Of a stretch of 20,478 nucleotides of DNA, positions 3,571-20,478 are shown piece after piece; position 1 is the stretch's first letter; each line of letters opens with the position of its first letter. Source of the stretch: Naegleria gruberi (taxonomy: Eukaryota); assembly GCA_000004985.1 (NCBI GenBank), contig GG738957.1. One strand, written 5' to 3'. The notes beneath the pieces were generated by a model. The model did no database searches, was not told where the DNA came from, and saw only the letters and a list, made by a program, of their open reading frames with translations. The position numbers and the translations under genes are program-made.

Positions 3571-3596
3571 GATGACATGAAGAGGCAATTATTGGA
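3571..3596 (+). repeat. Degenerate direct copy (25/26 nt) of the last coding nucleotides of the upstream gene (3395..3420), followed by a diverged alternative tail.
   Basis: gatgacatgaagaggcaattGttgga at 3395..3420 versus gatgacatgaagaggcaattAttgga at 3571..3596. The copy continues in frame as EDDMKRQLLEWFYVMKLQELYITIATSSK*, compared with the original DDDMKRQLLDKLQDYEL*. Confidence 0.55.
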
Positions 3597-4187: not shown

Positions 4188-5738
4188 ATGAGTAATGATG
4201 ACAACGACGTGCCCATGACCCCAAGGAGAGCATCCAGACAAGTCCAAACCAAATTCAACTCTCGTGATTATGCTCTCGTATTTGAAGAAGCTATCAAAGA
4301 TAAGGACTGTAGAGCAATTTTTAAGAGATTTCTAAAGAAGAGTCGTTCGGAAGAGTTGATGCAATTTTATGAAGAATATACAAAATATGATGAATTATTC
4401 TTGGAATGTTTGAATGCTAGTAGTTCTGGCGGTTCAGGTGGGAAAGGAAGGAGGAGTACCACAACATCAAAATCTGATGAGGATGACACAGTTTCGAATA
4501 GATTGAGTGTTAATAGTGCAGACTCTTCGACTAAATTGTTTAGGAAAGCAATTCAAAAGTTGTGGATTCAGGCACAAAGCATGATAGGTAGATTTATTCA
4601 ACAAGGTGCTGAACATGAAATTAATATTGGAAGTTTACAGAGAATGACATTTTCTAGGTGGCAAATATTGGATGACTTGACACCTGTTGTTTTTCAAGAA
4701 GCTAATTGGACTGATAATGAATATCAAACACTGTTGAATGTTTATCAAACAAAATTGGATCCTAATGTGTTATTTGAAGGATTATTAATAGCAGTATTAC
4801 AGGATTTAAAGCATGACCAATTTCCAAGATTTGTCAGAAATGATTTACTATTCGATTACTTACAAAAGAAGGGTGAGGTCTACACAAGAGCTATTGCCAT
4901 CAATGTTTCACATGGATTTAATGTTGATGTAAGATTTCAACCAAGTGATTTACAAAGTAAGGTCATTGATGAAAAGATGATTTTCTTTGGATTCACACTT
5001 TTACAAGATACACCAGATTGGGAACTAATCCTCGATAAGGATGATATTCAAGGATACATGTCCAAGACCAGTTACTTCTTTGGAAAGGATACAAGTGTTG
5101 GAAAGGAGAAGAAGGGTTTACGGCTGCATAAATCTGTTTACACATTGCCTTTCTGTATTGAGGATGTTTGGAAAATGGTGTGTAATCAAGAAAATCATTT
5201 AAAATTTGATCCAAAAGCAAATGAGGAATTCAAATTGAGAGATTTTAGGGAACCAAATCAAGATTGTGAATTTGCTGTAACGGAAACAGAAATGGGACCA
5301 AAATTCATGCCCATCATGAAAAGAAGACACTTTCCATTTATTACAACAACTTTTTATGACTCTCGTTTGAAAGGTTATGTGGTTGTCTGTAGAAGTTTCA
5401 ATGATTCTGATAATCACACCGATAGAATTCACTATGATGGTTTTGCATATACCATGTACATACCAAATGGTGATAAGGCAACCAATGTTTTCATGATTGA
5501 CTACTCAGATATCAAAATGCCATTCAAGGCGGCCATTTTGGAGAATACAGCCTACAAATTCCACATTCCAACAGTTCAGAAGGGTATGGTTAAGGTATTG
5601 AATGAACTCACCAATAATAGCACAAAGAATGTAGAGTGGAATGAGTCTATGGATGGAAGACACTGGTGGAAAATGGCAGAATTGCACAAAAATCGTTATC
5701 CTAACAAGTCATGGTATGATGAGTGGTTGAAAAAGTAG
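4188..5738 (+). CDS. RGS-domain protein with a C-terminal START/Bet v1-like domain, 516 aa.
   Basis: ATG in context aaaaccATGagt. RGS signature FEEAIKDKDCRAIFKRFLKKSRSEELMQFYEEYTKYDEL ... AQSMIGRFIQQGAEHEINIGSLQRM, interrupted by a Ser/Gly-rich low-complexity insert. The C-terminal roughly 220 aa (RRHFPFITTTFYDSRLKGYVVVCRSF...HYDGFAYTMYIPNGDKATNVFMIDYSDIKMPF) resembles the START lipid-binding fold by eye. Single exon. Confidence 0.6.
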   Translation: MSNDDNDVPMTPRRASRQVQTKFNSRDYALVFEEAIKDKDCRAIFKRFLKKSRSEELMQFYEEYTKYDELFLECLNASSSGGSGGKGRRSTTTSKSDEDDTVSNRLSVNSADSSTKLFRKAIQKLWIQAQSMIGRFIQQGAEHEINIGSLQRMTFSRWQILDDLTPVVFQEANWTDNEYQTLLNVYQTKLDPNVLFEGLLIAVLQDLKHDQFPRFVRNDLLFDYLQKKGEVYTRAIAINVSHGFNVDVRFQPSDLQSKVIDEKMIFFGFTLLQDTPDWELILDKDDIQGYMSKTSYFFGKDTSVGKEKKGLRLHKSVYTLPFCIEDVWKMVCNQENHLKFDPKANEEFKLRDFREPNQDCEFAVTETEMGPKFMPIMKRRHFPFITTTFYDSRLKGYVVVCRSFNDSDNHTDRIHYDGFAYTMYIPNGDKATNVFMIDYSDIKMPFKAAILENTAYKFHIPTVQKGMVKVLNELTNNSTKNVEWNESMDGRHWWKMAELHKNRYPNKSWYDEWLKK

Positions 5739-5992
5739 CCCCAAAGACAGCAAGAAACCAAGTTTCTTCACTCAATAGTAATTACAACCATTTCAGATTC
5801 CCAATAAGACAAATTGCCGTTTGCAAACTAGAATTACTGAAATCTGAAGTTCAATATTGCTAATATTGCTAATGTTTTGTAGGTGAAAATAACCTAATCT
5901 ATTGCCAAAGCACCAGTAAGGATTTCCCTCAATTGTTCAAAGCAGCTGTATTGTTACTTATTTAAATTATTTATTTTTCTTTTTGAATCAAA

Positions 5993-7666
5993 TTAAAATT
6001 CATTTCCCTTCTTCTTTTTCAATTTGTCAACCTTAATCTTGTCAATCTTCATTTCACGTTGGAAAGCAAGAGATTGCTTGAATCTGTGATGAGTATCCAT
6101 CATAACGAGGCATGTTTCCTTTTCCAAAATGTTAAACATATCTTCTGGAAGAGTTTCAATTTGCTTATCATTGAATTTGTCCAACTTATCCTTAACAGAA
6201 TCCACCAAAACATGTGATATATTGACAGCCATATCACCAGTCACTTCCAAGAATTCAGTAAATATTTCAAAAGCAACTTCATACTTTTTGGCTTCAACTT
6301 CTGCATATTCCCTTTCAAGTGGAGATTCCTTCTTCTTCTTTGATGATTGAGCTGACTCTGCTGAAATATCACTCGAAATATCACTCAATGCATTATTTTC
6401 TTGTCCAAATAATCTCATTTGCAAGTCAATTGAACGTTCACATAACGTTCTATAATATTGAATCTTTTCAAGAAGTAAATAATTTTCAATTGACTTTTCC
6501 TTTTCACAATGAACCTTAAAAAGAGCTCTCAAACCATCATCTTCCATTGTGTCCATTAACATGATTGCATTGGCACGACGAATCTTTTCCAAATATAAAG
6601 AATCACGATTAATAGCATAGGTAAAAACAAAGACAATGATTGGCATAATGACAAATAGTGAAATTGCAATAACAATCAATTGTACCAATGTAATACCCAA
6701 TACTTGTGAATCCTTTTCCTTTTCTCTGTTTTGTATAAAGGCAACTAATTTATCCAGACCTGACTGGAAAATTGCTTTTTCAGAATAGAAATAATCAGAA
6801 CTAATCTTTTCAATTGAATCTTCTGGTTGAGTTTTCAGCATTATCAATGCTTGATTATTCAAAGATACTACCATATTAGAAGCTTCAATAGCTGTAGAAT
6901 TGAATAAAGTTTGAATTGACTTGTCATCCACAGTTTTGAAAATTAAAAGTAAAGTTGATTTCATATCAGCAGTCTTGTTTTTAAATTCATTAATCACAGC
7001 TGAGTGACTTGGTTCATCAACATATCCTGTATAGACATGTTTCAACACCACAGCATTTGAACTTTCGAATAGAGAAGTGACCTTTCCAACAGCAATTAAA
7101 ATATCAGTTGCCTTTGTACTAGCAGTTGCAAATGCAGCAATTGCAACACCTGCCAAAACCAACAAACCAATGACAGTAACCAACATTCCCAATAAACAAG
7201 CCAATTTCATTGAAGTCAACTCAACCACACCACAACATGTACGTAAAGTAATTTTACTCTGACTAAATGAACTACCTGATTTACCACTTTCACTTGGTTG
7301 TCCAAAACCTACTTGAGATTGTCCAAGTTTCGTATTACCATTCACAGCACTACCAGATTGAATCGTAACTTGTTTCTTTCCATTACTATTATTATTAATA
7401 TTACCAGTGATACTTGTTCCACCATTTGTTTTGTTGGGATTATTAGGATTGCTGGTAATGAATGTATTTGTGTTTGGTGGTGTAAATTGATATTGTTGTT
7501 GAGTGGTTGGTTGTTGTTGTTGTTGTAGTGGAGGAGAGGATGAAGTTGAAGCCAATTCTATTGAAGTGGGGTTTGTTGTGTTAATAATATTGTTGGAATC
7601 ATGACTGTTGGAGAGTATTATTGGTGGTGGAGAGGTGGATGTCTCCGGAGAGGTTGTATTCATCAT
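5993..7666 (-). CDS. Receptor-like RGS protein, 557 aa: S/T/N/Q-rich N-terminus, TM1, about 160-aa extracellular loop, TM2, cytoplasmic RGS domain.
   Basis: Two strong TM helices (LACLLGMLVTVIGLLVLAGVAIAAFA and VLGITLVQLIVIAISLFVIMPIIVFVFTYAI). RGS motifs GLRALFKVHCEKEKSIENYLLLEKIQYYR ... KKYEVAFEIFTEFLEVTGDMAVNISHVL ... MMDTHHRFKQSLAFQ. Convergent with the previous gene, with 254 bp between the stops. Confidence 0.65.
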   Translation of the reverse strand: MMNTTSPETSTSPPPIILSNSHDSNNIINTTNPTSIELASTSSSPPLQQQQQPTTQQQYQFTPPNTNTFITSNPNNPNKTNGGTSITGNINNNSNGKKQVTIQSGSAVNGNTKLGQSQVGFGQPSESGKSGSSFSQSKITLRTCCGVVELTSMKLACLLGMLVTVIGLLVLAGVAIAAFATASTKATDILIAVGKVTSLFESSNAVVLKHVYTGYVDEPSHSAVINEFKNKTADMKSTLLLIFKTVDDKSIQTLFNSTAIEASNMVVSLNNQALIMLKTQPEDSIEKISSDYFYSEKAIFQSGLDKLVAFIQNREKEKDSQVLGITLVQLIVIAISLFVIMPIIVFVFTYAINRDSLYLEKIRRANAIMLMDTMEDDGLRALFKVHCEKEKSIENYLLLEKIQYYRTLCERSIDLQMRLFGQENNALSDISSDISAESAQSSKKKKESPLEREYAEVEAKKYEVAFEIFTEFLEVTGDMAVNISHVLVDSVKDKLDKFNDKQIETLPEDMFNILEKETCLVMMDTHHRFKQSLAFQREMKIDKIKVDKLKKKKGNEF

Positions 7667-8413
7667 GATGATAATTTAATAAATTATTATATAAATTATT
7701 ATTAGTATTTGTAGTATTATTATTAATCTAGATTTAAAAGATATGATGATGATTTTATATTTATTTGATGATCATCGTGATGATGATGACGGAGATAAAT
7801 CCGATGATGATGGCGCGATTTTGTGTTGGTTTATACTGTTAAATATTAACTAAAAACCTACCACGAGTTTTATCTATATTGTTAAATGTTTGGCAGTTGT
7901 GTACAATTACTACTGTTGTGTTGTTGTTGAAAGCAAACTAAGTGTTTTTGGTTTTGGAGTTTCTTTTTTACGTTTGTGAAATCTGTTGGTGTGTTGGCTT
8001 GGACTTTTCTTTGGAGTCTGACGAGGTTGTTGCATGTTGAATGGTTTGATAACCTAGAAGAGAATGGCTTGTCATTTTATGGACAGTTGATGGGAATTAA
8101 GTTTCGAATAAGTATGAGAAAGTTTGGGAATTGGTTTACTAATTGGACGGCAATGATGGATTATGGTCATGTGAAGAATTTCGGATGAGATTTGTGAATG
8201 GCTTTTGCTTATTTGCATGTTTCGAATATTCGTGCAACTTTCTTCAAAAAAAATAGATAAAGAAAGAGTCTAACAAATCGAAACAGGTACCTGTTTAAAG
8301 AGTGTTATCATCGCAGTTATCTTTGGTACGATATTTGGATAAAAATCATAGTAGTTCGATTGTAATAAGTTTGTAATGAATATTTCGAATACCAAATAAT
8401 TTATTCTAAACCC

Positions 8414-9724
8414 TTATTGATATTTATGCAATTCAGGATCTTTCAACAACCTTTCCATGTGCTCTCTCCACAAACTCAATTGAACAACTAAACTACCCTT
8501 CTCAACACCTTCCACAATTTTGAAAACGCCATCCAAAATTGTTGGAATTTCACCAACGAAAATTGGACTTTCGTTTGAGAATTTCAAATCGAATAGATTG
8601 AATGCAACCCATGAGGTGGCGAAAACATCAGTTCCAAATAGGACATGCATGTCTGATGGTCTAACTTTTTTAGAAACTGAAATCCAATCAATGAAATCTT
8701 GGACATGTTGTTTGTCCATGGTTCGGTTGACTGCATGTCTGGACACAGGTGCAAGAGTGGATAAATTGGAGTGGAGAATGGATTCGACAGAGATTCTATC
8801 AGATTGTCCATTCATTACTAGATAACCAAAGTAATCTTTTTGGATATTCAATGGTTTTCTTACATTACACGAATGTAAAAGACAAGAAGTTTGAGAATTC
8901 GAAAGGTTTCTTGCTTTGGTGATGAGTTTCCACATGTGTGAACAGAGAGCATCATTGGTACTAATCCATGAGTTTGCATTCGATAGTTCAATAGATGACA
9001 TTGCTTCCTTCTTCATGGCTTGAAGTTCTTTTTCACTGAATTTAATCATCTTGGCAGTACATTGACCAATCTTGGCATACAATTCTTCATAATTGATATG
9101 TTCTTCACTTTGAGTCCAGAATGGAAATGACTTTGGTGATTCCTTATTCGAAACCTTAATCACTTCATTCCTATTCAAGCAATCATATCGTATATTGTCA
9201 ATACTTTCACCCCTGAATAGTTGAGACCATCTATGCAAGAACTGAGCATGAGAATCACCATCTCCTAATTGATGTAACAATTCTGAAACTAACAAAACTC
9301 CACCACATTTGAAATAAGTAACTTGAATTTGAAGTGGAGCATCTTGAATGCCTTTCCATTGGGTGTATAGATCTTTAGGATATTGGTCGTAATCTCCCTT
9401 ATCGAAATCATCAAGGTTAAAATTGGCTTGTGCAATGGTGAAGGGAACACCACAAGTTTCGTTTCGAATATCTACAAACCATTCACCTTCGTTATTTCTT
9501 ACTGTTCTGCCGGCGAATATTGGAAAGATAGATAAAGTCTTTTCCAGTGCACTCATCAGTTCAGTTGCATTCATAAAGTTTGGTTCCGATTTTTCATTTC
9601 TATATGCAAATTGAAAGTGAAATGGAAGAGCAGGTGCCAAATTATCAAATACTGTCAATTTGACTAGTGTTTCTTTGGAAAGTAGTGGTTTGACAAGGAT
9701 TGGAGATTTGCTGACTTGTTGCAT
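8414..9724 (-). CDS. BAHD-family (HXXXD) acyl-CoA-dependent acyltransferase, 436 aa.
   Basis: TYFKCGGVLLVSELLHQLGDGDSHAQFLHRWSQLFRG matches the BAHD core F.CGG....HxxxDG....F...W...RG. Compare HCT RFKCGG...[22 protein letters not shown]. The C-terminal DFGWG motif is degenerate (DLKFSN). The ATG has an A-rich leader (aaaaaaaATGcaa). Confidence 0.7.
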   Translation of the reverse strand: MQQVSKSPILVKPLLSKETLVKLTVFDNLAPALPFHFQFAYRNEKSEPNFMNATELMSALEKTLSIFPIFAGRTVRNNEGEWFVDIRNETCGVPFTIAQANFNLDDFDKGDYDQYPKDLYTQWKGIQDAPLQIQVTYFKCGGVLLVSELLHQLGDGDSHAQFLHRWSQLFRGESIDNIRYDCLNRNEVIKVSNKESPKSFPFWTQSEEHINYEELYAKIGQCTAKMIKFSEKELQAMKKEAMSSIELSNANSWISTNDALCSHMWKLITKARNLSNSQTSCLLHSCNVRKPLNIQKDYFGYLVMNGQSDRISVESILHSNLSTLAPVSRHAVNRTMDKQHVQDFIDWISVSKKVRPSDMHVLFGTDVFATSWVAFNLFDLKFSNESPIFVGEIPTILDGVFKIVEGVEKGSLVVQLSLWREHMERLLKDPELHKYQ

Positions 9725-9888
9725 TTTTTTTATGATGTAATTTCAATTTGAAAATTCAATTTCGTAATTGAATTTCGTAATAATTGACTTACAGCGCTCA
9801 TCCTTATTCAAATCTTTAACACCGCAATTTGGAAATATATTTAAAAATTTATTGTAACACTAGAAAAATATTTAGAATGTGAGAAAAT

Positions 9889-12472
9889 TTATAAACCATT
9901 CATGTATTTCACATCACTTTCTAACATGCTTTCAGTTACAACACCGATATTTACACAATATCTTGATAAATCAACATTCTCATTGATTTTCTTTCTTGAT
10001 AATTTAATCAAATGATCCCATAATTTGATTCTATCTGGTTGGTAGGTCTGTAATTCTTCAATTAATCCAATCATGTATTGAACATCTTCATCTGCCATTT
10101 GATTGGTAAACATTGACACGAATTTTTCACATAGCATTGCCAGCTTGTCATTTAATTTCTTTGATTCCAATTCATAAAGCCATTCATCTTCTTTCACATT
10201 ATTGCTTCTTATCAACTCATACACTGTTTGCACATTTTCAAATCCAGAGAAATGTTCACTCGAATATCGGTCAACTGGAGCAAACACAAAGCGAGAATTT
10301 GCCTTATGATTCAAATAGGTACTCTCATCTACAAGAATATTAGTAGAAATAACACTATTCAAATAAGCCAAATCTCTGGAGCATTTCATCGAACGTCCAA
10401 ACATTGCATAATATCTCATTTGTTTGTTTCCGATATTTCCTTGAAGACATGATCCAGTACTTATTCCAATATGCAAGTCAACTGGTGTTTTCTTTTCATT
10501 GGTTAATGTTTCATTGAGAGAATTGAAGAATGATTTGATTTTAAGGGATGTTTCTAGAATGGTAATGTTATCAGGGTGAATGACTGCATATTCATCAACA
10601 CTCTTCGTGTGAACATCAACTTTCATTGTCTTACATAGTTGGAGAATGTTAGTATAGCATTTTGATAGCAAATTACTCAAATCATAGGTGTTATCGATCA
10701 TGTTAAATCCTGTAATCTTGATATACATTACAGAGCTGTTAAGGGTTGACAAACCAATTTTGAAGAGATTCATCTTGTTATTGGTATTGTTATCAACACC
10801 AAGGAAGAATGATGAAGTATGTGAGGATTTCTCTTCCAAGTATGATGAGTTCTCCTTTTTTAGGTAATGTTGTTTGGCTGAATTTTCAATGACATGTTGA
10901 TCTGAAGGTGTTGTAATTACTTTAGGTTTCTGAGGATCATTACTTTCCAATTGATTAAGAATATTCTCTGGAAGGAAAGCTCTAAATTCCTGTAACCACT
11001 TGACTGTCAAGTACAAACTCACATAGATATTTCTAATTTCGGTAAAGATTGAAGAGTGTCTCTCGATTTCTTCCAAACTCATTACTTCAATCTTTGCAAA
11101 ATCGGATTGAATGATTCGAAGAGGTTTCGTTATGGCATATCCTATCAAGATACTAAACATCATTCCAATTAAGGTGACTCCAATAGCAACACCCAAAATG
11201 ACGTAACTGCTAAGAATGACATTTTCCATAATTTCACTCTCCTCACACACTATTGTCATTCTCCATTTCAAATTATCTATTGAATAGGATGAACTGGAAA
11301 TCATGTAGGAAATTCCATCTTCTCCTGTAACTTGTGTAATATCTCCTTCTGATACATTCATTGATAGATACTTGTTCATTAGTGAACCAGCATTTCGAAC
11401 TGTTACATTTCTTACTGGAATTCTGTCAAAACCAACTCCCGTAATATTCAAATTGGCTCCAATAATCATATCATTGGCATATTCAGTCAGAATGATATAT
11501 CCTCTATTCAAAATCTTTAATTTTGATAAAAAGGTTGAAATTTTACCTAGTGAAAGATTGATCTTTGAAATTCCAATTCTTCTCTTTTCGGCTGGCCACA
11601 CTGTTCTGTCGTAAACTGGAGATGAATAATAAATTGATTGAACTCCATCAGAGAGCACTATTTACATTCAAGAAAACAGCATGTGAATATAGTAAATAAA
11701 AAATATGTGAATATAGAAAGGAAATGAATAACTTACCCTTATAAGGAGGACCAAAACCACCAGGTGAAGTTGGATAGGCATTGAATATTCTCAATGATTC
11801 CTTGTAGTAATCTGTAGTATTTATAAAATACTTTGGAACGCTTGTTGAAACCTTATCATACATGGGCACCACTGATGTCAAATTCAAATCGCAAATGGTT
11901 AATTTTAGATTATTAAAATTTACGAAAGCCCAACTTTTGGTGTCCACAGCAAAAAGTCCATTATTATTCAATTCACCAAAACAAATATTCAACATTGTAA
12001 CATTGTTGTAAATTATTCTACTGTGAAAGTATGGAACTAGCGAACTATCGGTATTGATTACTTTTCTGTGATAATCATCAGCCAGAGTGATGGATAAACT
12101 TTTTGCTAGCATTAAGGGTCTATCAAGAAAGTTTATAATCTTCTCCTGGATAGTCTGGACAAGTACTTTTGTCGATTGTATTGATTCCCTTTGATGCATT
12201 ACATAAGCAGAGAGCCAAACACTGAATGATGTAGCAATGACCAATATCATGATTAGCATGACGAGGAATAACCTAAAGGAAAGACAAAAGCCTAGTAAGG
12301 GATTTCTATCATGTATGCTCTTACTACTCTGTATTTCCTCATTATTATTAATATTATTATTGTTGTTGTTGTTGTTGTGATTAATATTGTTAGTGGTTGT
12401 ATTGTTGTTACTGAAGGAATAGAGATTGCTTGCAGAATAGCTATCATGATGATGAGGTGCAATTCTAGTCAT
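9889..12472 (-). CDS. Receptor-type class III adenylate/guanylate cyclase, ACG-like topology, 834 aa in two exons (12472..11737 and 11657..9889).
   Basis: The first ATG (MTRIAPHHH) is at 12472; the ORF track's 'M' at 12568 is a GTG. Exon 1 has a poly-Asn tract, TM1 (FRLFLVMLIMILVIATSFSVWLSAYV) and an extracellular region. The extracellular region continues in exon 2 (about 340 aa in total, CHASE-like). It is followed by TM2 (VILSSYVILGVAIGVTLIGMMFSILIGYAI), a linker and the cyclase homology domain (...YIKITGFNMI...KSVDEYAV...DLHIGISTGSCLQGNIGNKQMRYYAMFGRSMKCSRDL). The exons are joined by a phase-1 GTAAGT...AAATAG intron (K|V-LSDG). Confidence 0.7.
11658..11736 (-). other. 79-nt phase-1 intron of the cyclase gene (GTAAGT...AAATAG).
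   Basis: The minus strand reads cct cct tat aag g|gtaagttattcatttcc...gaatgtaaatag|tg ctc tct gat gga. The 11648..12568 ORF otherwise terminates at TAA. The reading frame is restored exactly and the combined length (2505 nt) is divisible by 3. Confidence 0.75.
12338..12412 (-). repeat. (AAT/AAC)n simple-sequence repeat encoding a poly-Asn tract (NNINHNNNNNNNNINNN) in the cytoplasmic N-terminus of the cyclase.
   Basis: The plus strand shows attattattaatattattattgttgttgttgttgttgtg. Antisense reading gives the poly-Val 'shadow ORF' 12311..12538. Confidence 0.8.
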
Positions 12473-13036
12473 TTTGTTAGAGTTGGAGAGTTTAAAGTCA
12501 GCGAGATTGATACCACTATTAGACGCTGGTTCACATGATACAACCTTAATTGCGCACACAACAAACACCGTGGTTGGAGTGTTACTCCTTATATGATACT
12601 AACTGTGTGTAAGTTCTCTATCTCTCTCGCTTGTTGAGGAGTCACAAACATAACAGAATCAAAATGAAGGTTCATCATACCTCTTGATTTAGTGAGCGTA
12701 AAAATGGAGATTCTGCGAATGATTCTGTTGCGTGTTCAAATATTTCGCCTTAATGATATTAATTTGTGTGAGATGGTGACCAATTAGTGGTTTGTTGGCA
12801 TATAAGTTCGTATCACCTCGTTGCCTTAATGAGACAACTCAAGGTGGTTTTCTTACAGCACATGTTATTTTAAAAAGCAGGAATAGGATCACTGATTCCA
12901 CAACTATGGAATATTACTAACCTGACGTTTATATTTATTTTATATTTATTATACATTCATTTTATTTATAATGAATAATTGCATTTTGAATTTTCTTTAA
13001 AAAAAATACTTAAACAAACAATTTGTATTGTTAAAT

Positions 13037-14338
13037 ATGAGATTCGTTAAGCATATGCTAGCAGTAATTGTACCACAGTCGGAGATAGATGACTCGGTCG
13101 ATATAATTAGCAAGGTTGAATTTAGGGATGTTTGTTTTAATGTGTTTAGAATTGATAGTAATGGTGATTTAATTCCTCCCTCCACCAAGTTCTCCCAAAG
13201 AAAATTAGAGTTTCTTACTAATATTAAGGACATTTTGCAGAAAACCACAGGTGGAATGGCTCGTATTGGCTATCTAAGTAGGAAGGATCCAAGTGCTTCT
13301 GGTACTTGCTTTTATTTACTTCCCGATGTTGTAATTACCAACTCCCACGTTGTGAATACAGATCAAACCCCTTTCGTTTATAAAGGAACCTTTGAGGAGG
13401 CATCTAATGGTTATTTACAAAAGTTGAATCCTATTGAAAGAAAATTGCTCTTCTCTGGATCAGCCTTACAGAATGGAATAAGGAAATATAACCACTCCGT
13501 AACACGAGCACATTTCCCAAGTGTGGATGATGCTTATGTAGATCCAATACTTTCTTTGAGAGGAGATTTTGGATATATGGATGTTTCCTTGCACCAACTG
13601 AAATGCCTATCCAAGAATTTAGAAATGTCTAAAGTACTAATGATTCCGTGTCCTACACTCCTTCAAGTTTCGGATCCTATCTTCACTCTGCATTATCCAG
13701 GGATCGAGGGGTACCAATTTTCCAACCATAAAAGAGGAGAATGTGCAAACTATTTTAATTGGGCTCCCAACGACAATGTTGTTTCTAATTTGTTTCATGG
13801 TTTTGGAAAGCTATGTATTAGTACTGGTAAAGTATTGGCCCCATACGCAGAAATGAAAGATGAAAATGGAAACAATATTTGGGCTCCAAACACTTCACAT
13901 CAATACACATCTCTTAATTCTGATTTCCTTATAACAAATGAATCTGTAATGATGGGTTCTTCTGGTGGTTGTGTACAATCCCATGCTTGTGAGGTTGATG
14001 AGATTAATGGTGTGACATTGGTAGAGTTTCACGCCATCCATTTTGGAGGCGAATTTGTTAAATGTAAGAATTGCTTAAAGCACATCAAACAACAAATGAA
14101 TGTTAATGATGAATATCCATCTTTATTCCAAGGTTTACCTCGAGAATGGAACTTTTGCACAGATTGTCAAAATGGAATAGAACCTTCAAAAATGGTATAC
14201 AATTACTCTGTGTCTGTCCATCATCCATTGTTCAAACAGGTCTACAAGAAATTAATTTTGCCAGATTTGTTGAATGTGTTGAATATTGATTTGTCAGACA
14301 ATAGATTAGAACGATTGAGACAATATTTAGATAGTTGA
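13037..14338 (+). CDS. Trypsin/chymotrypsin-fold serine peptidase (Trypsin_2-like), 433 aa, with a C-terminal CxxC...CxxC zinc-ribbon-like motif.
   Basis: The first ATG is at 13037; the 13028 start in the track is a TTG. Catalytic His in GTCFYLLPDVVITNSHVV, compare DegP ILTNNHVV. Catalytic Ser in MMGSSGGCV, which is GxSGG. The C-terminus has CKNC(x20)CTDC. It is transcribed divergently from the cyclase, 564 bp away. Confidence 0.6.
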   Translation: MRFVKHMLAVIVPQSEIDDSVDIISKVEFRDVCFNVFRIDSNGDLIPPSTKFSQRKLEFLTNIKDILQKTTGGMARIGYLSRKDPSASGTCFYLLPDVVITNSHVVNTDQTPFVYKGTFEEASNGYLQKLNPIERKLLFSGSALQNGIRKYNHSVTRAHFPSVDDAYVDPILSLRGDFGYMDVSLHQLKCLSKNLEMSKVLMIPCPTLLQVSDPIFTLHYPGIEGYQFSNHKRGECANYFNWAPNDNVVSNLFHGFGKLCISTGKVLAPYAEMKDENGNNIWAPNTSHQYTSLNSDFLITNESVMMGSSGGCVQSHACEVDEINGVTLVEFHAIHFGGEFVKCKNCLKHIKQQMNVNDEYPSLFQGLPREWNFCTDCQNGIEPSKMVYNYSVSVHHPLFKQVYKKLILPDLLNVLNIDLSDNRLERLRQYLDS

Positions 14339-15045
14339 AAAGCTTCAAAGCTGCAGTCAGGTTGATTTGCATGCAATCTGAAATATGTCGCATGACTCAA
14401 GTGATTATTCACCAATTCAATGAACAATATTCAATATTCGTGATTTGAATCAACAGCTTGATTAACAAGCTTATGAGAAACATAATGGTGGTGGAATTAA
14501 TCAATAAATAGTTGAAAACACTGAGATGGAATGTAAACTATGGTCTATTTGTTATGTAATGGTGACTAGACAGTGTCAATTTCATCAAATTATTTCAAAC
14601 TGATTACATTCAATAAAAAAAACCATTCTATTCATCAAATATGTCATACAGAATGGCTTAACTGGTCTAAGCGCAAAAGAACACCTAAGAATGTTGCCCT
14701 AGAAGTCTACAAAGCACTAGCTCAGTGTGGGATACAAGCTTCACTATTAACAGGAAATACCTCTCTGCCTACCACTGGCAGGCTCAGTCTAATCAACCAC
14801 TTAGCGTCACAAAGCACTTAAACGTGTCTCTCTGGTCTTTACGATACAAGAGACGTTAATCTTACAATTTATATGTTTAAAATGTATTGCATGGTACTTG
14901 TGCTATTTCTCAAAGGTCAATTTTTTTTACCTGGAACTCTATTGTTTGTCCGACTTGTGATATACTTGGCTCAGCATCGGCTCAACAAGTGACCATTTGT
15001 TCTCAAGGTTGGTGGTGGTTATCGTTTCGTACTCATTGGATCTTT

Positions 15046-15099
15046 ATTATTACTGAAGAGTGGACACATTTTGGCGAGTGACGATTGGCGAAGATCTCC
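15046..15099 (+). repeat. Left terminal inverted repeat of the MULE-like element.
   Basis: See the element entry. It contains the palindromic core cgattgg-cgaagatct-ccaatcg. Confidence 0.7.
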
Positions 15100-15280
15100 A
15101 ATCGCATATTCCATTTCGTATACTTGAACTTTCGCCAATTTCATGTACGTGAACTAAGGAATCGTAAAATTTATGTGGCGAAAAAGCAATTAAGGAACAA
15201 TAAAATGGAAATTCCAATTTATTATTCCAATTAAAAAATCTTTACAAAACCGTTACATTTTGTAAAGTAGTTTTCGAGAG

Positions 15281-15287
15281 TATAAAT
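15281..15287 (+). promoter_or_regulatory. Candidate TATA box (TATAAAT) for the transposase gene.
   Basis: gagagTATAAATggaaag lies 44 bp upstream of ATG 15331, inside the element. Confidence 0.3.
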
Positions 15288-15330
15288 GGAAAGAATTTAA
15301 AGTTATTCATACAATTTAGTTCACTAAAAA

Positions 15331-17364
15331 ATGTCCTCACGTTCTCACAGATTCACCATCAACAACGTATTCAAAGATTCAACACCAAGCATTGAGGTTA
15401 ACGAAGAATCTAAATTCGATAAGCTGTCCTTCCCTTCTGTTGGCACTCTTTATCATTCTTCTACCATTTCTGATCCATTTAAATCTCTTATTCAATACAA
15501 CATTAAATTAAATGGAGAAAAGCCAAGAGAGATTGATGGCAAGGTTTACCAATTTCAAAGTGGTAAATGTAAAGGTTGTAAACAGTGCACAGCTAGTGGG
15601 TGTTCACTTTGTTACAATCTTAATTCAAAGAGAAAGCTGTGTCCTGTTCATAATTGCAATTTGGAACATAGAAAGTGTAATACCAAATTTTATATTGGCT
15701 CAACCAGTCAAGACCAGTTCGTCTATTCTTCTTCTTGTCATTCACATCCAAATCCACCTCCAAGAAAGATTCCTCCAAGCCAAAGACTTGAAATGGGTGC
15801 TGCATTTCAAAACAATACTACTCTTACAGCCAAAGATGTATCATTGGGTATTGGATTATCTGAAATTCCTGCTTTTGAAAATAGAGCATGTGCAAATATT
15901 TCAAGAATTCAATCCATCAAAAGGCAAGCTCTAAAATTGGGTGGCTCATCTCCTTCCTTGGTTATTTTGAAAGTTGAAGAACAACATGTACCAGATTTTC
16001 AAAAGAAAATGAAAGATGTTGATCCTTCAGATTTACAATGGGTCAGAAACATTGTAAACGACGTGGATAATTCTTTGATTCATACACAATTTCCATTATT
16101 TTCTAAAATAATTAAGGAGAAGGCGAATTTTCTGGTAATAGATTTAAAGCATAAGTCAAAAGCAGGTCCTTATTATCATCACCTTGGTTTTTCTTCTTTT
16201 ATTGAAGAACAAAAGGGAGGTCATTCAATCCAATTATGTAGAATTCTAATGGAAGAACAAACATATCAAGAACCGTTTCTATTATTTCTAAACACTCTTG
16301 AAAAAGATGGTTGTAATTTGAATGAATTGTTTGTTGGGCCTAACTGTAAAATCAAAGGGATTTTGGTTGATTTTAGCCAATTTCAATTAAAAGGTTTAAA
16401 AGACGCCTTTAGGGTAAAGTTTGGAGAAAAAGGTGATTCTATAATTGATGAATTGGTTTCAGGTTGTTTCGTACATTTCCTTCGTTCAGCAAGAAGATTG
16501 GTAAATTCGCTGCCAATAGAACAAGAATACAGAAATCTGGTTTTCAAAATGTTGGAAAGTGTTAAAGAATTTAAGAAAGAAGATGAAATCATCCATATCA
16601 TCAATGCTATTGAGGTATTCTGTGCAGGAGCAGCAACTTGGTGTACTTGGTGGAAGCAACCACATATCTTGAAATTGCTTCTTGCAAAAAGTTCCCAAGA
16701 AAATGATATACCAAGACATACAAACCACCAAGAAATTCTTAATGTAAACGTACCAACCTATGGAGGTAACTATGTCATTGAATCAGAGATGCTCTTGAGA
16801 GAAGATATGTTGGCATTGATAAGATATTTGAGTCTTTGTTCTGGTGTGGAATTATCATATAGAAATACTACTAAGCAAGGGAGAGAGAAGAGAAATCTGT
16901 CTCGTAAACAAGCTCAATTCGATAGTAGACCAGCAGATACTGTGGCTAGAGGAATAGTTCCAACCAATGTTTCGACAATAAGTGTTATCAAGAATTTCGT
17001 TCAAGGAGTGGAAGAAATGGAAAGGAAGAAGCTTGATGATTTTGCAGGAGAGCAAGCTGACGATTTGAATGACAAAGATTTTACTCCTACTGGATCCGTT
17101 GAACCTGCAAAACAAAAGAGAACCCCTCGAACTCCAAAGAAAGGCGTAAAAAGAGCAGCCAAGCCTTCACCCTCTCAAACTAAGAAGAAGTCAAAGGTGA
17201 TTGAAGACGAATATTCCAGTAGCTCATCTGATGGATTTGAGAGTGCTGCCAGTAATTCTATTACTGATGAGTCCGAAAGTGAATCTGATTCCATTCGTGA
17301 TACTGAGATATTCACAAGATCCAAAGGATTAATTGGAGATCCAAATAGATCTGAAAGTGCTTAA
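15331..17364 (+). CDS. MULE-type DDE transposase, 677 aa: N-terminal Cys-rich zinc-finger-like region, DDE catalytic core with CxxH, and a basic/acidic Ser-rich C-terminal tail.
   Basis: Cys cluster CKGCKQCTASGCSLCYNLNSKRKLCPVHNCNLEHRKC...SSCHSH. First Asp in NFLVIDLKHK (D271). Second Asp in KGILVDFSQFQLKGLKDAF (D347). Diagnostic MULE CxxH in SGCFVHFLRSARR. The catalytic Glu lies in HTNHQEILN, matching the T-N-x-x-E-x-x-N motif of MuDR-family transposases. The D-D spacing is 76 and D-E is 121. TATAAAT lies at 15281..15287, 44 bp upstream of the ATG. Confidence 0.65.
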   Translation: MSSRSHRFTINNVFKDSTPSIEVNEESKFDKLSFPSVGTLYHSSTISDPFKSLIQYNIKLNGEKPREIDGKVYQFQSGKCKGCKQCTASGCSLCYNLNSKRKLCPVHNCNLEHRKCNTKFYIGSTSQDQFVYSSSCHSHPNPPPRKIPPSQRLEMGAAFQNNTTLTAKDVSLGIGLSEIPAFENRACANISRIQSIKRQALKLGGSSPSLVILKVEEQHVPDFQKKMKDVDPSDLQWVRNIVNDVDNSLIHTQFPLFSKIIKEKANFLVIDLKHKSKAGPYYHHLGFSSFIEEQKGGHSIQLCRILMEEQTYQEPFLLFLNTLEKDGCNLNELFVGPNCKIKGILVDFSQFQLKGLKDAFRVKFGEKGDSIIDELVSGCFVHFLRSARRLVNSLPIEQEYRNLVFKMLESVKEFKKEDEIIHIINAIEVFCAGAATWCTWWKQPHILKLLLAKSSQENDIPRHTNHQEILNVNVPTYGGNYVIESEMLLREDMLALIRYLSLCSGVELSYRNTTKQGREKRNLSRKQAQFDSRPADTVARGIVPTNVSTISVIKNFVQGVEEMERKKLDDFAGEQADDLNDKDFTPTGSVEPAKQKRTPRTPKKGVKRAAKPSPSQTKKKSKVIEDEYSSSSSDGFESAASNSITDESESESDSIRDTEIFTRSKGLIGDPNRSESA

Positions 17365-17561
17365 TTGAAAGCTGCTAGAAAACATGGTGTTGACTCTTCT
17401 AAAAGAATTTCTTTGTAATTTTAATAACAAATACCCAACAAATGTTGGAATTTTTGGTTTATTTGTTTCTTTTTCCAAAAACTTAATCGCAATTTTCATC
17501 TGGAGATTTTCGCCAATCTCCAATTTCATTAAGCGAATGAAACCATTCGCAAAATTCAAGT

Positions 17562-17603
17562 GGCGATTTTCGCCAATCGTCGATCGCCAAAATGTGTATA
17601 CTC
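17562..17603 (-). repeat. Right terminal inverted repeat of the MULE-like element.
   Basis: ggcgattttcgccaatcgtcgatcgccaaaatgtgtatactc is the reverse complement of the left end, with 4 mismatches in 36 bp. Confidence 0.7.
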
Positions 17604-17823
17604 TATTCACCGAAATATATACTCAATGATATACATCATTAAATAGGTTACAATCTCAGCTATCCAGTGGGCTATAGATTGTGTATGGTTTCTTATCTAA
17701 TTATTGAGATAATCAGCAATTGTTATAGGCGATAAAAACTCGAATGGAGATTCAGGCAATTAAATTCGTTGGTATGGACGTGCCAGGCGAAAAATAACTG
17801 GAGCAAGGTACTATTAAATAAGT

Positions 17824-19439
17824 NNNNNNNNNNNNNNNNNNNNNNNNNNNNNNNNNNNNNNNNNNNNNNNNNNNNNNNNNNNNNNNNNNNNNNNNNNNNN
17901 NNNNNNNNNNNNNNNNNNNNNNNNNNNNNNNNNNNNNNNNNNNNNNNNNNNNNNNNNNNNNNNNNNNNNNNNNNNNNNNNNNNNNNNNNNNNNNNNNNNN
18001 NNNNNNNNNNNNNNNNNNNNNNNNNNNNNNNNNNNNNNNNNNNNNNNNNNNNNNNNNNNNNNNNNNNNNNNNNNNNNNNNNNNNNNNNNNNNNNNNNNNN
18101 NNNNNNNNNNNNNNNNNNNNNNNNNNNNNNNNNNNNNNNNNNNNNNNNNNNNNNNNNNNNNNNNNNNNNNNNNNNNNNNNNNNNNNNNNNNNNNNNNNNN
18201 NNNNNNNNNNNNNNNNNNNNNNNNNNNNNNNNNNNNNNNNNNNNNNNNNNNNNNNNNNNNNNNNNNNNNNNNNNNNNNNNNNNNNNNNNNNNNNNNNNNN
18301 NNNNNNNNNNNNNNNNNNNNNNNNNNNNNNNNNNNNNNNNNNNNNNNNNNNNNNNNNNNNNNNNNNNNNNNNNNNNNNNNNNNNNNNNNNNNNNNNNNNN
18401 NNNNNNNNNNNNNNNNNNNNNNNNNNNNNNNNNNNNNNNNNNNNNNNNNNNNNNNNNNNNNNNNNNNNNNNNNNNNNNNNNNNNNNNNNNNNNNNNNNNN
18501 NNNNNNNNNNNNNNNNNNNNNNNNNNNNNNNNNNNNNNNNNNNNNNNNNNNNNNNNNNNNNNNNNNNNNNNNNNNNNNNNNNNNNNNNNNNNNNNNNNNN
18601 NNNNNNNNNNNNNNNNNNNNNNNNNNNNNNNNNNNNNNNNNNNNNNNNNNNNNNNNNNNNNNNNNNNNNNNNNNNNNNNNNNNNNNNNNNNNNNNNNNNN
18701 NNNNNNNNNNNNNNNNNNNNNNNNNNNNNNNNNNNNNNNNNNNNNNNNNNNNNNNNNNNNNNNNNNNNNNNNNNNNNNNNNNNNNNNNNNNNNNNNNNNN
18801 NNNNNNNNNNNNNNNNNNNNNNNNNNNNNNNNNNNNNNNNNNNNNNNNNNNNNNNNNNNNNNNNNNNNNNNNNNNNNNNNNNNNNNNNNNNNNNNNNNNN
18901 NNNNNNNNNNNNNNNNNNNNNNNNNNNNNNNNNNNNNNNNNNNNNNNNNNNNNNNNNNNNNNNNNNNNNNNNNNNNNNNNNNNNNNNNNNNNNNNNNNNN
19001 NNNNNNNNNNNNNNNNNNNNNNNNNNNNNNNNNNNNNNNNNNNNNNNNNNNNNNNNNNNNNNNNNNNNNNNNNNNNNNNNNNNNNNNNNNNNNNNNNNNN
19101 NNNNNNNNNNNNNNNNNNNNNNNNNNNNNNNNNNNNNNNNNNNNNNNNNNNNNNNNNNNNNNNNNNNNNNNNNNNNNNNNNNNNNNNNNNNNNNNNNNNN
19201 NNNNNNNNNNNNNNNNNNNNNNNNNNNNNNNNNNNNNNNNNNNNNNNNNNNNNNNNNNNNNNNNNNNNNNNNNNNNNNNNNNNNNNNNNNNNNNNNNNNN
19301 NNNNNNNNNNNNNNNNNNNNNNNNNNNNNNNNNNNNNNNNNNNNNNNNNNNNNNNNNNNNNNNNNNNNNNNNNNNNNNNNNNNNNNNNNNNNNNNNNNNN
19401 NNNNNNNNNNNNNNNNNNNNNNNNNNNNNNNNNNNNNNN
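17824..19439. other. Assembly gap (1616 N) between the unique subtelomeric sequence and the telomere-associated sequence.
   Basis: The run of n is continuous. The ORFs reported across it (17723..19462, 17752..19446 and 17769..19457) are artefacts of translating N. Confidence 0.99.
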
Positions 19440-20234
19440 GTATCAATAGTTATATGATTCATGATAGTTTAAAATTGACTTGGTCATCTAAGGACAGGTA
19501 ATTAAGGGTTGAATGAATTGATATGAAATTCAATACCAATTATTGATATACCATGTTAAATTGATCTATATATGATATTATAATTGAAAGATTTTAAAAT
19601 TAATATGATTTCATTTTCTTGATATTCATAATTCTCATGATTACACTCCTGACATGTTGAATGAGTTCAAATTGTCATGAGACTGATACAGTGGTGTTTA
19701 TTCATCATTGGCAAGGTACTGTATCAATTATATGATGATCTGTATAGTAGATGTCATTGTCACATCCCTGTAGGTATCAAGTGGATCAGCCATGTACCAT
19801 GTATGATATGGATGATCTTCAAAATCAAATAGATATATTTTATTATCATGTATAGATGTATTAGAAGTGAATTGAAGTGGGAAAGATTTCTATCTTCAGT
19901 GTTAGTATAGGTCAGTTGACAAGTTGAATAGTAAACATCCTGATATGATACCAAAGTATTTGAAATTGATATATATTGTTATTAACATGATTTAAAAGGT
20001 GATATATTGATTTGAAATGATTTTGAAATGTTTTCATTGATATTCTAATTGTCTAATCTATTATATGAAATTAACTTATATAAGTCATTATAATGATGTA
20101 ATATTATGTTATAATATGATTATATATTCAATTTGGAGTATATTGATATATAATATATTGATTTATAATGAGTATTTATTGAGATAATTAATTAAGATTA
20201 ATAAAAGTCAAAATGTTGGGTCTGACCTTAGTCG
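19440..20234. repeat. AT-rich, low-complexity telomere-associated (subtelomeric) sequence with short gatat/tgaaatg-type motif repeats; non-coding.
   Basis: Very low GC, with reiterated motifs such as gatatattgatttgaaatgattttgaaatg and tgatatataatatattgatttataatg. No credible ORF. It directly abuts the telomeric array. Confidence 0.6.
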
Positions 20235-20478
20235 TGGGTTTGGGTTTGGTTAACCTGGGGGTTGGGTTTGGGTTTGGGTTTGGGTTTGGGTTTGGGTTTG
20301 GGTTTGGGTTTGGGTTTGGGTTTGGGTTTGGGTTTGGGTTTGGGTTTGGGTTTGGGTTTGGGTTTGGGTTTGGGTTTGGGTTTGGGTTTGGGTTTGGGTT
20401 TGGGTTTGGGTTTGGGTTTGGGTTGGGTTTGGGTTTGGGTTTGGGTCTGGGTTTGGGTTTGGGTTTGGGTTTGGGTTA
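20235..20478 (+). repeat. Telomeric repeat array (TTTGGG)n, about 40 units, G-rich strand 5'->3' towards the window end, with degenerate proximal units and rare variants (GGGTT, GGGTCT).
   Basis: gggtttgggtttgggttt... repeats perfectly from about 20263 to 20478 and runs off the end. The proximal units are variants, gtgggtttgggtttggttaacctgggggtt. One 5-mer unit lies near 20424 and a C-variant near 20447. Confidence 0.9.

What the first reader, a model, noticed from the sequence alone, without database searches (positions are those of the whole stretch)
15046..17603. Intact Mutator-like DNA transposon as the last gene before the telomere
A single 677-aa ORF is flanked by 36-bp, roughly 89%-identical terminal inverted repeats, extendable to about 55 bp with one indel. 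Both subterminal regions carry multiple TTCGCCAAT / GGCGAWTTT motif copies in both orientations, the usual arrangement of transposase-binding sites. The protein has a MULE transposase-like D(271)...D(347)...CxxH...TNxxE(468)xxN arrangement and an N-terminal Cys-rich putative zinc finger. The flanks suggest a degraded TSD of about 10 bp (tattactgaa / tattcaccgaa), which fits the 9-11 bp TSDs of Mutator elements. The full ORF, the unbroken catalytic triad and the well-matched TIRs suggest a recently active, possibly autonomous copy sitting in a subtelomere. The long Ser/Glu/Lys-rich C-terminal tail is unusual for MULE transposases.
Basis: partly seen in the sequence, partly recalled or inferred. 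Interest (0 to 1): 0.78.

Follow-up and report, generated by a model that had tools for sequence, protein, structure and literature searches.

The report
Divergent Mutator-type transposon in Naegleria
This is one full-length copy of a cut-and-paste "jumping gene" of the Mutator type in the amoeba Naegleria gruberi; it belongs to an unannotated, divergent branch that is still jumping in the sister species N. lovaniensis, so it is ordinary in kind and only modestly interesting.

Summary
Window 15058-17603 is a 2,546-bp element with 43-44-nt imperfect terminal inverted repeats (38/44), four TGGCGA motifs at each end in mirrored order, and one intact 677-aa ORF. The window is a whole 20,478-bp Naegleria gruberi scaffold, and the ORF is the annotated "predicted protein" XP_002668767.1.

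No Pfam model hits the protein, including MULE. A family profile hits only the ISCth4 "Mutator family transposase" in the PDB (E 1.4e-6), aligning C379/H382 and E468 with its catalytic CxxH and E348. The family consensus passes Pfam Transposase_mut. The AlphaFold model best matches ISCth4, Hermes and P-element transposases, and its N-terminal domain matches GCM/WRKY zinc fingers.

Mobility is shown in N. lovaniensis. Six 99.96%-identical 2,528-bp copies sit at six different loci. Four have exact 9-bp target duplications, and one splits a Na/Ca-exchanger gene.

In N. gruberi, a second scaffold encodes an identical 271-aa C-terminal part. The window copy has only an imperfect flanking repeat.

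"Last gene before the telomere" cannot be verified, because 1,616 N lie between the element and the (GGGTTT)n array. There is no evidence of telomere targeting.

Verdict: a new member of a known kind (Mutator/IS256 superfamily).

The parts
15048..15057 (+). Left flanking direct repeat TATTACTGAA, a possible decayed target-site duplication
   Evidence: It abuts the GAGT terminus. It matches 17604-17614 at 9 positions with 1 indel and 1 mismatch, and a permissive chance estimate is about 1%. Relatives make exact 9-bp TSDs.
15058..15100 (+). Left terminal inverted repeat, GAGTGGACACATTTTGGCGA...
   Evidence: It pairs 38/44 with the right end, score 58 against shuffles 20.5 +/- 2.6. The terminal GAG, the TTTT and the GC are shared with both ends of the N. 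lovaniensis element.
15058..15330 (+). 5' subterminal non-coding region with TGGCGA motifs at 15072(+), 15086(+), 15132(-) and 15176(+); presumed transposase-binding sites and promoter
   Evidence: The binding and promoter roles are inferred.
15331..17364 (+). Transposase ORF, 677 aa (XP_002668767.1, NAEGRDRAFT_54620)
   Evidence: It is collinear end to end with the 696-aa transposase of the active N. lovaniensis element at 42% identity.
15508..15768 (+). N-terminal GCM/WRKY-type zinc-finger DNA-binding domain (about aa 60-146; C80, C86, C91, C104, H107, C116, H137, H139)
16042..16755 (+). [quoted passage not shown]
   Evidence: pLDDT is above 90. The secondary-structure order fits the fold: D271 on a strand, D347 just after a strand, CxxH at the start of the helical insert, E468 on a helix. 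The profile hits ISCth4 at E 1.4e-6, with catalytic residues as in PMC7780238.
17053..17361 (+). Disordered basic, then Ser/Glu-rich, C-terminal tail (aa 575-677)
   Evidence: pLDDT is below 50. A similar tail with a shared SKVI.DE stretch is present in the Naegleria relatives. More distant relatives carry a chromodomain at the C-terminal end instead.
17365..17603 (+). 3' subterminal non-coding region with TGGCGA motifs at 17510(-), 17561(+), 17570(-) and 17584(-), and a 32-nt direct repeat (17487-17518 / 17547-17578)
17561..17603 (-). Right terminal inverted repeat, ending ...TCGCCAAAATGTGTATACTC
17604..17614 (+). Right flanking direct repeat TATTCACCGAA, a possible decayed TSD
17824..19439 (.). 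Run of 1,616 N (context): unknown sequence between the element and the chromosome end
20222..20478 (+). Telomere-like array (context): degenerate GGGTTT-like repeats from about 20222, regular (GGGTTT)n at 20258-20477, G-rich strand running 5'->3' to the scaffold end

Best explanation
Window 15058-17603 is one full-length copy of a DNA (class II, cut-and-paste) transposon of the Mutator/IS256 superfamily in Naegleria gruberi. It belongs to a divergent lineage that no curated Pfam model recognises from single sequences.

Proposed mechanism:
1. The single ORF encodes a transposase. Its N-terminal GCM/WRKY-type zinc finger recognises the TIRs and the four mirrored subterminal TGGCGA motifs at each end (inferred).
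2. Its RNase H-like domain carries out excision and strand transfer. The relevant residues are D271, D347 and E468, plus the C379xxH382 motif and conserved tryptophans in an alpha-helical insertion domain. This step is inferred from homology to ISCth4, Muta1 and Hermes.
3. Integration uses target cuts staggered by 9 bp, which gives 9-bp target-site duplications. This is shown directly in the N. lovaniensis relatives.
4. The basic part of the disordered tail probably serves nuclear import (inferred).

The copy looks structurally competent, with an intact ORF, intact catalytic residues, both TIRs and symmetric motif arrays. Whether it is currently active in N. gruberi is not shown. Its position near a telomere is most likely incidental.
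For: Anatomy: the TIRs, motif arrays and ORF are confirmed.

Superfamily:
- A 49-sequence family profile hits only 6xg8_A, "Mutator family transposase" (ISCth4), in the whole PDB sequence set, at E 1.4e-6. No hAT, P-element or RAG1 chain appears even at E<=10.
- The aligned residues are ISCth4 C262/H265 and catalytic E348 (PMC7780238).
- The family consensus scores 26 bits against Pfam PF00872 Transposase_mut, above the 21-bit cut-off.
- The AlphaFold model has mean pLDDT 78, with the core above 90.
- D271 is conserved in 32/32 relatives, D347 in 45/46, C379 in 41/43, H382 in 42/43 and E468 in 34/36.

Mobility of the family:
- The 696-aa N. lovaniensis homologue is encoded at six loci with unrelated neighbours.
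- All six loci share a 2,528-bp segment at 99.96% identity.
- Four copies have exact 9-bp TSDs.
- Removing one copy plus one TSD restores a 511-codon open frame of a Na/Ca-exchanger gene.

A 9-bp TSD together with CxxH fits the Mutator superfamily (8-11 bp, PMC6446971; the CxxH superfamilies are listed in PMC9587614).

Other N. gruberi loci:
- P0002, on a 218,836-bp scaffold, is 100% identical to residues 407-677.
- None of the five window genes that could be looked up, including the one next to the element, has a listed twin on that scaffold. P0002 therefore looks like an independent locus rather than a haplotig.
- There is also a 39%-identical paralogue, P0004.
Against: - No Pfam, NCBIfam or PDB sequence hit exists for the protein on its own. 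Pfam MULE PF10551 is missed by every relative scanned; the best is 17.3 bits against a 27.6-bit cut-off.
- The window copy lacks a clean 9-bp TSD.
- Copy number in N. gruberi appears low, and the DNA of the other N. gruberi loci could not be retrieved. Transposition in this genome is therefore not demonstrated.
- DNA binding by the zinc finger to TGGCGA is inference only.
Confidence: 0.88

Rival explanations
1. It is a dead or immobile relic, or a domesticated transposase gene. On this view the ORF is kept for a host function, such as something at the chromosome end, and the TIRs are leftovers.
For: - Only one full-length copy is seen in N. gruberi, plus one identical partial gene model and one distant paralogue.
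- The TSD is imperfect.
- The locus lies next to a telomere-like array.
- Some distant relatives are fused to RecQ helicase or chromodomains, which shows that the domain can be recruited into other architectures.
Against: - Both TIRs and four mirrored TGGCGA motifs per end are retained. Domesticated transposases normally lose these.
- An identical 271-aa segment exists at an unlinked locus.
- The closest full-length relative is clearly mobile. One of its 99.96%-identical copies also has an imperfect TSD (L002, 6/9), so an imperfect TSD does not imply age.
- N. lovaniensis copies are not telomeric.
Confidence: 0.1
2. It is a hAT-superfamily transposon, or one from another CxxH superfamily (P, Kolobok, Dada), rather than a Mutator element.
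For: [quoted passage not shown]
- Kolobok elements are reported from Naegleria.
Against: - The sequence profile detects only the Mutator-family transposase. It does not detect Hermes, P element or RAG1, even at E<=10.
- The family consensus passes Pfam Transposase_mut, and no hAT, P or Kolobok-related model appears.
- TSDs are 9 bp with varied sequence. Kolobok makes 4-bp TTAA duplications, and from general knowledge hAT and P make 8 bp and Dada 6-7 bp.
- No hAT dimerisation domain or BED/THAP finger is found by Pfam. The N-terminal domain is GCM/WRKY-like, the type associated with MULEs (Babu et al. 2006, reference 16 of PMC5225508; its content is cited from general knowledge).
Confidence: 0.04
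3. The inverted repeats and the flanking repeat are chance features around an ordinary host gene.
For: The genome is AT-rich (about 34% GC), which favours spurious short repeats. The TSD-like repeat has about a 1% chance probability on its own.
Against: - The TIR score is about 14 standard deviations above the shuffles.
- The CpG-containing motif is concentrated at the ends, P 6e-11.
- The termini share GAG...TTTT.GC with the N. lovaniensis element ends.
- The protein is a transposase homologue.
Confidence: 0.01

Closest known systems
Eukaryotic Mutator-like elements (MULEs: MuDR, Jittery, Hop, Muta1, TvMULEs of Trichomonas)
   Same: - A single-ORF cut-and-paste element with TIRs.
- A 9-bp TSD in relatives. 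MULEs make 8-11 bp (PMC6446971), and Muta1 makes 8-9 bp (PMC5225508).
[quoted passage not shown]
- An N-terminal WRKY/GCM1-class zinc finger.
- A weak SWIM finger downstream of the core in one distant relative (P0030).
   Different: - Pfam MULE (PF10551), FAR1, DBD_Tnp_Mut and SWIM do not hit this protein. No relative scanned reaches the MULE cut-off.
- The TIRs are short, about 44 nt, against the often hundreds of bp typical of MULEs (PMC6446971).
- There is no SWIM finger.
- It has a long disordered basic/acidic tail.
- Naegleria does not appear in the 2019 eukaryote-wide MULE survey.
Prokaryotic IS256 family (Pfam PF00872 Transposase_mut; solved example ISCth4 TnpA, PDB 6xg8/6xgw)
   Same: - It is the only solved protein detected by the family profile, at E 1.4e-6. 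CxxH and the catalytic E in the TN.iEslN motif align.
- It is the best Foldseek hit.
- The family consensus passes the PF00872 cut-off.
- The D-D-E spacing is similar: 76 and 121 residues here, 66 and 107 in ISCth4.
   Different: - IS256 elements are bacterial and use copy-out/paste-in through a circle (PMC7780238).
- They have HTH DNA-binding domains, not a GCM/WRKY finger.
- Sequence identity is only about 14-16%.
hAT transposases (Hermes)
   Different: No sequence-profile match. The TSD is 9 bp, not 8. There is no BED finger and no hAT C-terminal dimerisation domain.
N. lovaniensis 2,528-bp element encoding KAG2370672.1 (P0064), annotated only as a hypothetical protein
   Same: - Same architecture and size: 2,528 bp against 2,546 bp.
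- 42% identical, collinear transposase.
- Termini GAGT...CTC with shared TTTTGGC.
- Same genus.
   Different: - Six near-identical dispersed copies with exact 9-bp TSDs. The window has a single copy with an imperfect TSD.
- The subterminal repeats differ: CACCTTACAC in N. lovaniensis, TGGCGA here.

Membership tests
Mutator / IS256 superfamily (MuDR in Repbase terms) | DDE transposase whose catalytic domain is homologous to IS256/MULE transposases | tested here: met
   The family profile hits only ISCth4 "Mutator family transposase" in the PDB, at E 1.4e-6. The family consensus scores 26 bits against PF00872, above the 21-bit cut-off. ISCth4 is the top Foldseek hit at E 2e-5. The single sequence on its own gives no hit.
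Mutator / IS256 superfamily (MuDR in Repbase terms) | [quoted passage not shown] | tested here: met
   C379xxH382, W437/W440/W441 and T464-N465-x-x-E468-x-x-N471 are present. Conservation is 41/43, 42/43, 37-41 of 42-44, and 34/36 respectively. These residues align with ISCth4 C262/H265 and E348.
Mutator / IS256 superfamily (MuDR in Repbase terms) | Target-site duplication of 8-11 bp | tested here: inconclusive
   The feature is met for the family: exact 9-bp TSDs in 4 of 6 N. lovaniensis copies. For the window copy there is only an imperfect 10/11-nt repeat, with chance about 1%.
Mutator / IS256 superfamily (MuDR in Repbase terms) | Terminal inverted repeats flanking the transposase gene | tested here: met
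   38/44 TIRs, about 14 standard deviations above the shuffles.
Eukaryotic MULE as defined by Pfam PF10551 (MULE transposase domain) | Score above the Pfam gathering threshold for PF10551 | tested here: not met
   No hit at E<=1 for the window protein. Among 38 relatives the best is P0027 at 17.3 bits, against a 27.6-bit cut-off. The family consensus does not hit PF10551 either.
Eukaryotic MULE (typical architecture) | N-terminal WRKY/GCM1-class zinc-finger DNA-binding domain | tested here: met
Eukaryotic MULE (typical architecture) | SWIM zinc finger after the catalytic core (present in many MULEs but not all) | tested here: not met
   No SWIM hit in the window protein. There is only a weak SWIM match (E 0.0075) in the distant RecQ-fused relative P0030.
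hAT superfamily | 8-bp TSD, hAT C-terminal dimerisation domain, BED-type finger | tested here: not met
   The family TSD is 9 bp. There are no Pfam hAT or BED hits and no profile match to Hermes. Only the shared fold class matches.
Kolobok superfamily (reported from Naegleria) | TTAA-specific 4-bp TSD (PMC9587614) | tested here: not met
   The TSDs are GGACTTTTG, TTCAAATTC, ATGAGAAGA and AGCACTTTT.
Autonomous, currently active element in N. gruberi | New insertions, insertion polymorphism or excision in this genome, and expression of the ORF | not testable with these tools
   N. gruberi DNA other than this scaffold could not be fetched. There is only indirect evidence: an identical 271-aa gene model on an unlinked scaffold.

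The most novel reading that the evidence does not exclude
The family, which has no functional annotation in any named source record seen here ("predicted" or "hypothetical protein"), may be a previously undescribed deep lineage of the Mutator/IS256 superfamily in microbial eukaryotes. It occurs in Heterolobosea (N. gruberi, N. lovaniensis, Acrasis kona) and in many unidentified metagenomic eukaryotes. By sequence it is detected by the bacterial IS256 model but not by the eukaryotic MULE model, and it uses a GCM-type DNA-binding domain. It has sub-lineages in which the transposase is fused in one ORF to a RecQ helicase or to a chromodomain, which hints at helicase-assisted or chromatin-targeted transposition. 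The six near-identical N. lovaniensis copies would then be a currently active element that could be developed into the first transposon tool for Naegleria.
Probability: 0.3. Interest if true: 0.55.

Novelty: new member of a known kind. Interest (0 to 1): 0.35.

Why it matters
- It assigns a function to a set of "predicted" or "hypothetical" proteins in Naegleria and Acrasis that current domain libraries leave blank.
- It extends the known host range of Mutator-type elements to Heterolobosea. That group is absent from the 2019 eukaryote-wide MULE survey (PMC6446971).
- It identifies, in N. lovaniensis, an element that looks currently active. This species is the non-pathogenic sister of N. fowleri. 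The element is compact (2.5 kb, one ORF, about 40-nt TIRs, 9-bp TSD), so it is a realistic starting point for insertional mutagenesis or transgenesis in a genus for which, to my knowledge, genetic tools are poor.
- For the window itself the finding is an ordinary transposon copy. Its subtelomeric position carries no demonstrated significance.

Tried and rejected
- Single-sequence searches gave nothing: Pfam at E<=1, PDB sequences and NCBIfam.
- The word-indexed homologue search found only 1-2 proteins, even with a profile. The exhaustive representative search was what opened up the family, with 61 hits.
- The first AlphaFold run, with a 2-sequence alignment, failed at pLDDT 34. It succeeded with 38 sequences.
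- The AFDB50 fold library was unavailable.
- Exact look-ups of the N. gruberi proteins (the window ORF, P0002 and P0004) found no contigs. The second N. gruberi copy and the paralogue therefore could not be inspected at the DNA level.
- The DNA for the closest metagenomic homologue, P0001, was not available.
- An exact 27-base TIR pattern has no match in the JGI metagenome contigs.
- Literature searches for Naegleria MULE or MuDR, or for the Naegleria telomere repeat, returned nothing relevant.
- Subtelomere targeting was considered and rejected. N. lovaniensis copies sit among housekeeping genes, and no GGGTTT arrays occur in 20 kb around them.
- A larger inverted segmental duplication was considered and rejected. 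The flanks share no similarity with the element.
- A haplotig explanation for the second N. gruberi copy was considered and judged unlikely. The neighbouring genes have 97% twins only on an 8,551-bp scaffold, not on the 218,836-bp scaffold that carries P0002.
Full report
**What is there**

The window is AT-rich, at about 34% GC. It ends in a (GGGTTT)n array at 20258-20477, with the G-rich strand running toward the end. A run of 1,616 N occupies 17824-19439.

It is flanked by inverted repeats. Positions 15057-15100 pair with 17561-17604 at 38/44. The local alignment score is 58, against 20.5 +/- 2.6 (maximum 30) for shuffled sequence. Weaker complementarity extends to 54 nt.

The motif TTCGCCAAT occurs four times in the window, only in the element ends. 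The best core is TGGCGA. Eight of its ten occurrences in the window lie within 267 bp of the two ends, four per end, in the mirrored order + + - +.

The flanks share no similarity with the element. The TIRs are therefore not the edge of a larger inverted duplication.

**Organism and annotation**

Cluster look-ups identify the ORF as NCBI XP_002668767.1 / EFC36023.1, "predicted protein [Naegleria gruberi]". It is recorded on a contig of exactly 20,478 bp, so the window is a complete small scaffold. The neighbouring genes are also annotated N. gruberi proteins on this scaffold. They include RGS-domain proteins, a cyclase and a BAHD-type transferase.

**What the protein is**

The protein on its own matches nothing in Pfam at E<=1, in NCBIfam, or among PDB sequences.

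An exhaustive phmmer search found 61 relatives. Named members come from N. gruberi, N. lovaniensis and Acrasis kona, and many others come from metagenomes.

The alignment shows a conserved N-terminal Cys/His pattern. It also shows nearly invariant D271 (32/32), D347 (45/46), C379 (41/43), H382 (42/43), three tryptophans, N465 (37/37) and E468 (34/36).

A profile of 49 family members hits one solved protein only. That protein is 6xg8_A, the ISCth4 "Mutator family transposase" of the IS256 family, at E 1.4e-6. No hit to Hermes, P-element transposase or RAG1 appears even at E<=10. After allowing for a three-residue numbering offset in the PDB chain, the aligned residues are ISCth4 C262/H265 and the catalytic E348 (PMC7780238).

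The HMM consensus of the family scores 26 bits against Pfam PF00872 "Transposase, Mutator family", above the 21-bit cut-off. Pfam MULE PF10551 is never reached; the best relative scores 17.3 bits against 27.6.

**Structure**

An AlphaFold model built on 38 sequences is confident, with mean pLDDT 78 and the core above 90. An earlier 2-sequence attempt failed.

The order of secondary-structure elements fits an RNase H-like fold. D271 lies on a strand and D347 at the end of a strand. CxxH lies at the start of an all-helical insertion, and E468 lies on a helix after it.

The fold therefore places the protein in the class of transposases with helical insertion domains. Sequence profiles and the TSD length select Mutator/IS256 within that class. 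Residues 575-677 are predicted to be disordered.

**Is the family mobile?**

Yes, in N. lovaniensis. The 696-aa homologue P0064 is 42% identical and collinear end to end. It is encoded at six loci with unrelated neighbours. The six loci share exactly one 2,528-bp segment at 99.96% identity.

That segment begins GAGTTG... and ends ...CCTC, and it has imperfect TIRs. Four copies are flanked by exact 9-bp duplications: GGACTTTTG, TTCAAATTC, ATGAGAAGA and AGCACTTTT. One copy has 6/9. One has none, and that one is followed by a partial second copy.

One copy sits inside a Na/Ca-exchanger gene. Deleting the element and one TSD restores a 511-codon open frame across the junction.

The element termini of the two species share GAG, TTTT and GC at the same positions.

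A 9-bp TSD lies within the 8-11 bp range of MULEs (PMC6446971) and matches the 8-9 bp of Muta1 (PMC5225508). It excludes Kolobok, which makes TTAA duplications and is the CxxH superfamily already reported from Naegleria (PMC9587614).

**The window copy itself**

The termini defined by homology are 15058 (GAGT...) and 17603 (...ACTC). The abutting flanks are TATTACTGAA and TATTCACCGAA. They match only with one indel and one mismatch, and a permissive simulation gives about a 1% chance. An in-register 9-bp comparison fails.

This does not date the insertion. One of the 99.96%-identical N. lovaniensis copies also has an imperfect TSD with an apparent 1-nt indel.

A second N. gruberi gene model, P0002 (NAEGRDRAFT_74992, 271 aa), lies on a 218,836-bp scaffold. 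It is 100% identical to residues 407-677. The window's other genes have 97% twins only on an 8,551-bp scaffold, and none on the 218-kb scaffold. P0002 is therefore most likely an independent, possibly truncated, second copy rather than a haplotig.

A 39%-identical paralogue, P0004, also exists in N. gruberi. The DNA of these loci could not be retrieved.

**Telomere context**

The element is the last annotated gene on the scaffold. However, 1.6 kb of unknown sequence lies between it and the repeat array.

The N. lovaniensis copies lie among ordinary genes, and no GGGTTT arrays occur within about 10 kb on either side of them. There is no support for telomere targeting.

**Mechanism**

- Shown: the element structure, homology of the catalytic core to Mutator/IS256 transposases, 9-bp TSD formation, and gene disruption by close relatives.
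- Inferred from established knowledge of Hermes, Muta1 and ISCth4: DDE-catalysed excision and integration, assisted by the CxxH motif and a Trp in the insertion domain (PMC5225508, PMC7780238).
- Inferred from the anatomy alone: recognition of the TIRs and TGGCGA repeats by the GCM/WRKY-type finger, and nuclear import through the basic part of the tail.

**Comparison and novelty**

The element works like a MULE and meets the superfamily criteria that could be tested. It fails the Pfam MULE model, lacks a SWIM finger and has short TIRs.

No paper in the searchable library describes Mutator elements in Naegleria. Repbase could not be checked, and it may already hold such entries, because Kolobok from Naegleria is catalogued there.

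I rate it a new member of a known kind, of modest interest at 0.35. The more novel possibility is an undescribed deep Mutator lineage with RecQ-fused and chromodomain-fused variants and an active copy usable as a Naegleria genetic tool. I give that about 0.3.

Noticed in passing
window 17824-19439: A run of 1,616 N lies between the element and the telomere-like array. It is either an assembly gap or masked sequence, and its content is unknown. "Last gene before the telomere" therefore cannot be verified.
   Followed up: partly
window 20222-20478: A telomere-like array: regular (GGGTTT)n at 20258-20477 (36.8 copies, 97% matches), preceded from about 20222 by degenerate variants (GGGTT, GGGGTT, GGGTCT). 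The G-rich strand points to the scaffold end. I found no paper stating the Naegleria telomere repeat. No such arrays occur in the N. lovaniensis loci examined.
   Followed up: partly
window about 6,900-14,340 (genes 5993-7666 and 13037-14338): An 8,551-bp N. gruberi scaffold carries 97%-identical partial copies of these two genes (P0086, P0091). It is probably the other haplotype. By its size it should end close to the element's left boundary, so it may hold the empty insertion site.
   Followed up: partly
L007 3663-8663 (ENA ERZ28668929 NODE_355), also L008: A distant relative, P0030 (1,666 aa), is one continuous ORF. It fuses a RecQ-family helicase (TIGR00614, 4e-56) to the zinc-finger and transposase core, followed by a weak SWIM finger. 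P0054/P0081 look similar (RQC domain; one is named RecQ helicase by its source). No TIRs were found within the 9-kb contig.
   Followed up: partly
L009 385-2625 (ENA ERZ27230167 k119_38196): Relative P0006 (653 aa) carries a C-terminal chromodomain (Pfam Chromo, 4e-12) in place of the disordered tail. It is flanked by about 50-nt TIRs (CAAGGTTGAGCTC...) with no obvious TSD. P0035 also has a chromodomain.
   Followed up: partly
L001 8381-9785 (N. lovaniensis PYSW02000090.1): A 1,405-bp partial second copy of the element (99.9% identical) lies 111 bp downstream of a full copy, and this full copy lacks a TSD. This suggests a rearrangement or an aborted or nested transposition event. P0003 is a variant copy with a deletion that removes the CxxH region.
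   Followed up: partly
L002 5733-5741 / 8270-8278: A 99.96%-identical, and therefore very young, N. lovaniensis copy has an imperfect TSD: CTTGCGCAC against CTTGCCACC, an apparent 1-nt deletion. Imperfect TSDs in this family therefore need not indicate age.
   Followed up: no
window 17728-17795: Two further GGCGA motifs (GGCGATAAAAA and GGCGAAAAATA) lie just outside the right end, next to the N gap. This stretch shows no significant alignment to the element. They may be the edge of another repeat hidden in the gap.
   Followed up: partly
window 13037-14338 (protein cluster): The 90% cluster of this Naegleria protein also contains a 48-aa "hypothetical protein" from Streptosporangium sp. NBC_01469 (WP_329092644.1). 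This is an odd pairing, perhaps contamination or a spurious short ORF.
   Followed up: no
window 485-12568: The gene content is typical of N. gruberi signalling expansions: two RGS-domain genes, an adenylate/guanylate-cyclase-domain gene, a TmcB-like TPR gene and a BAHD-type acyltransferase.
   Followed up: no
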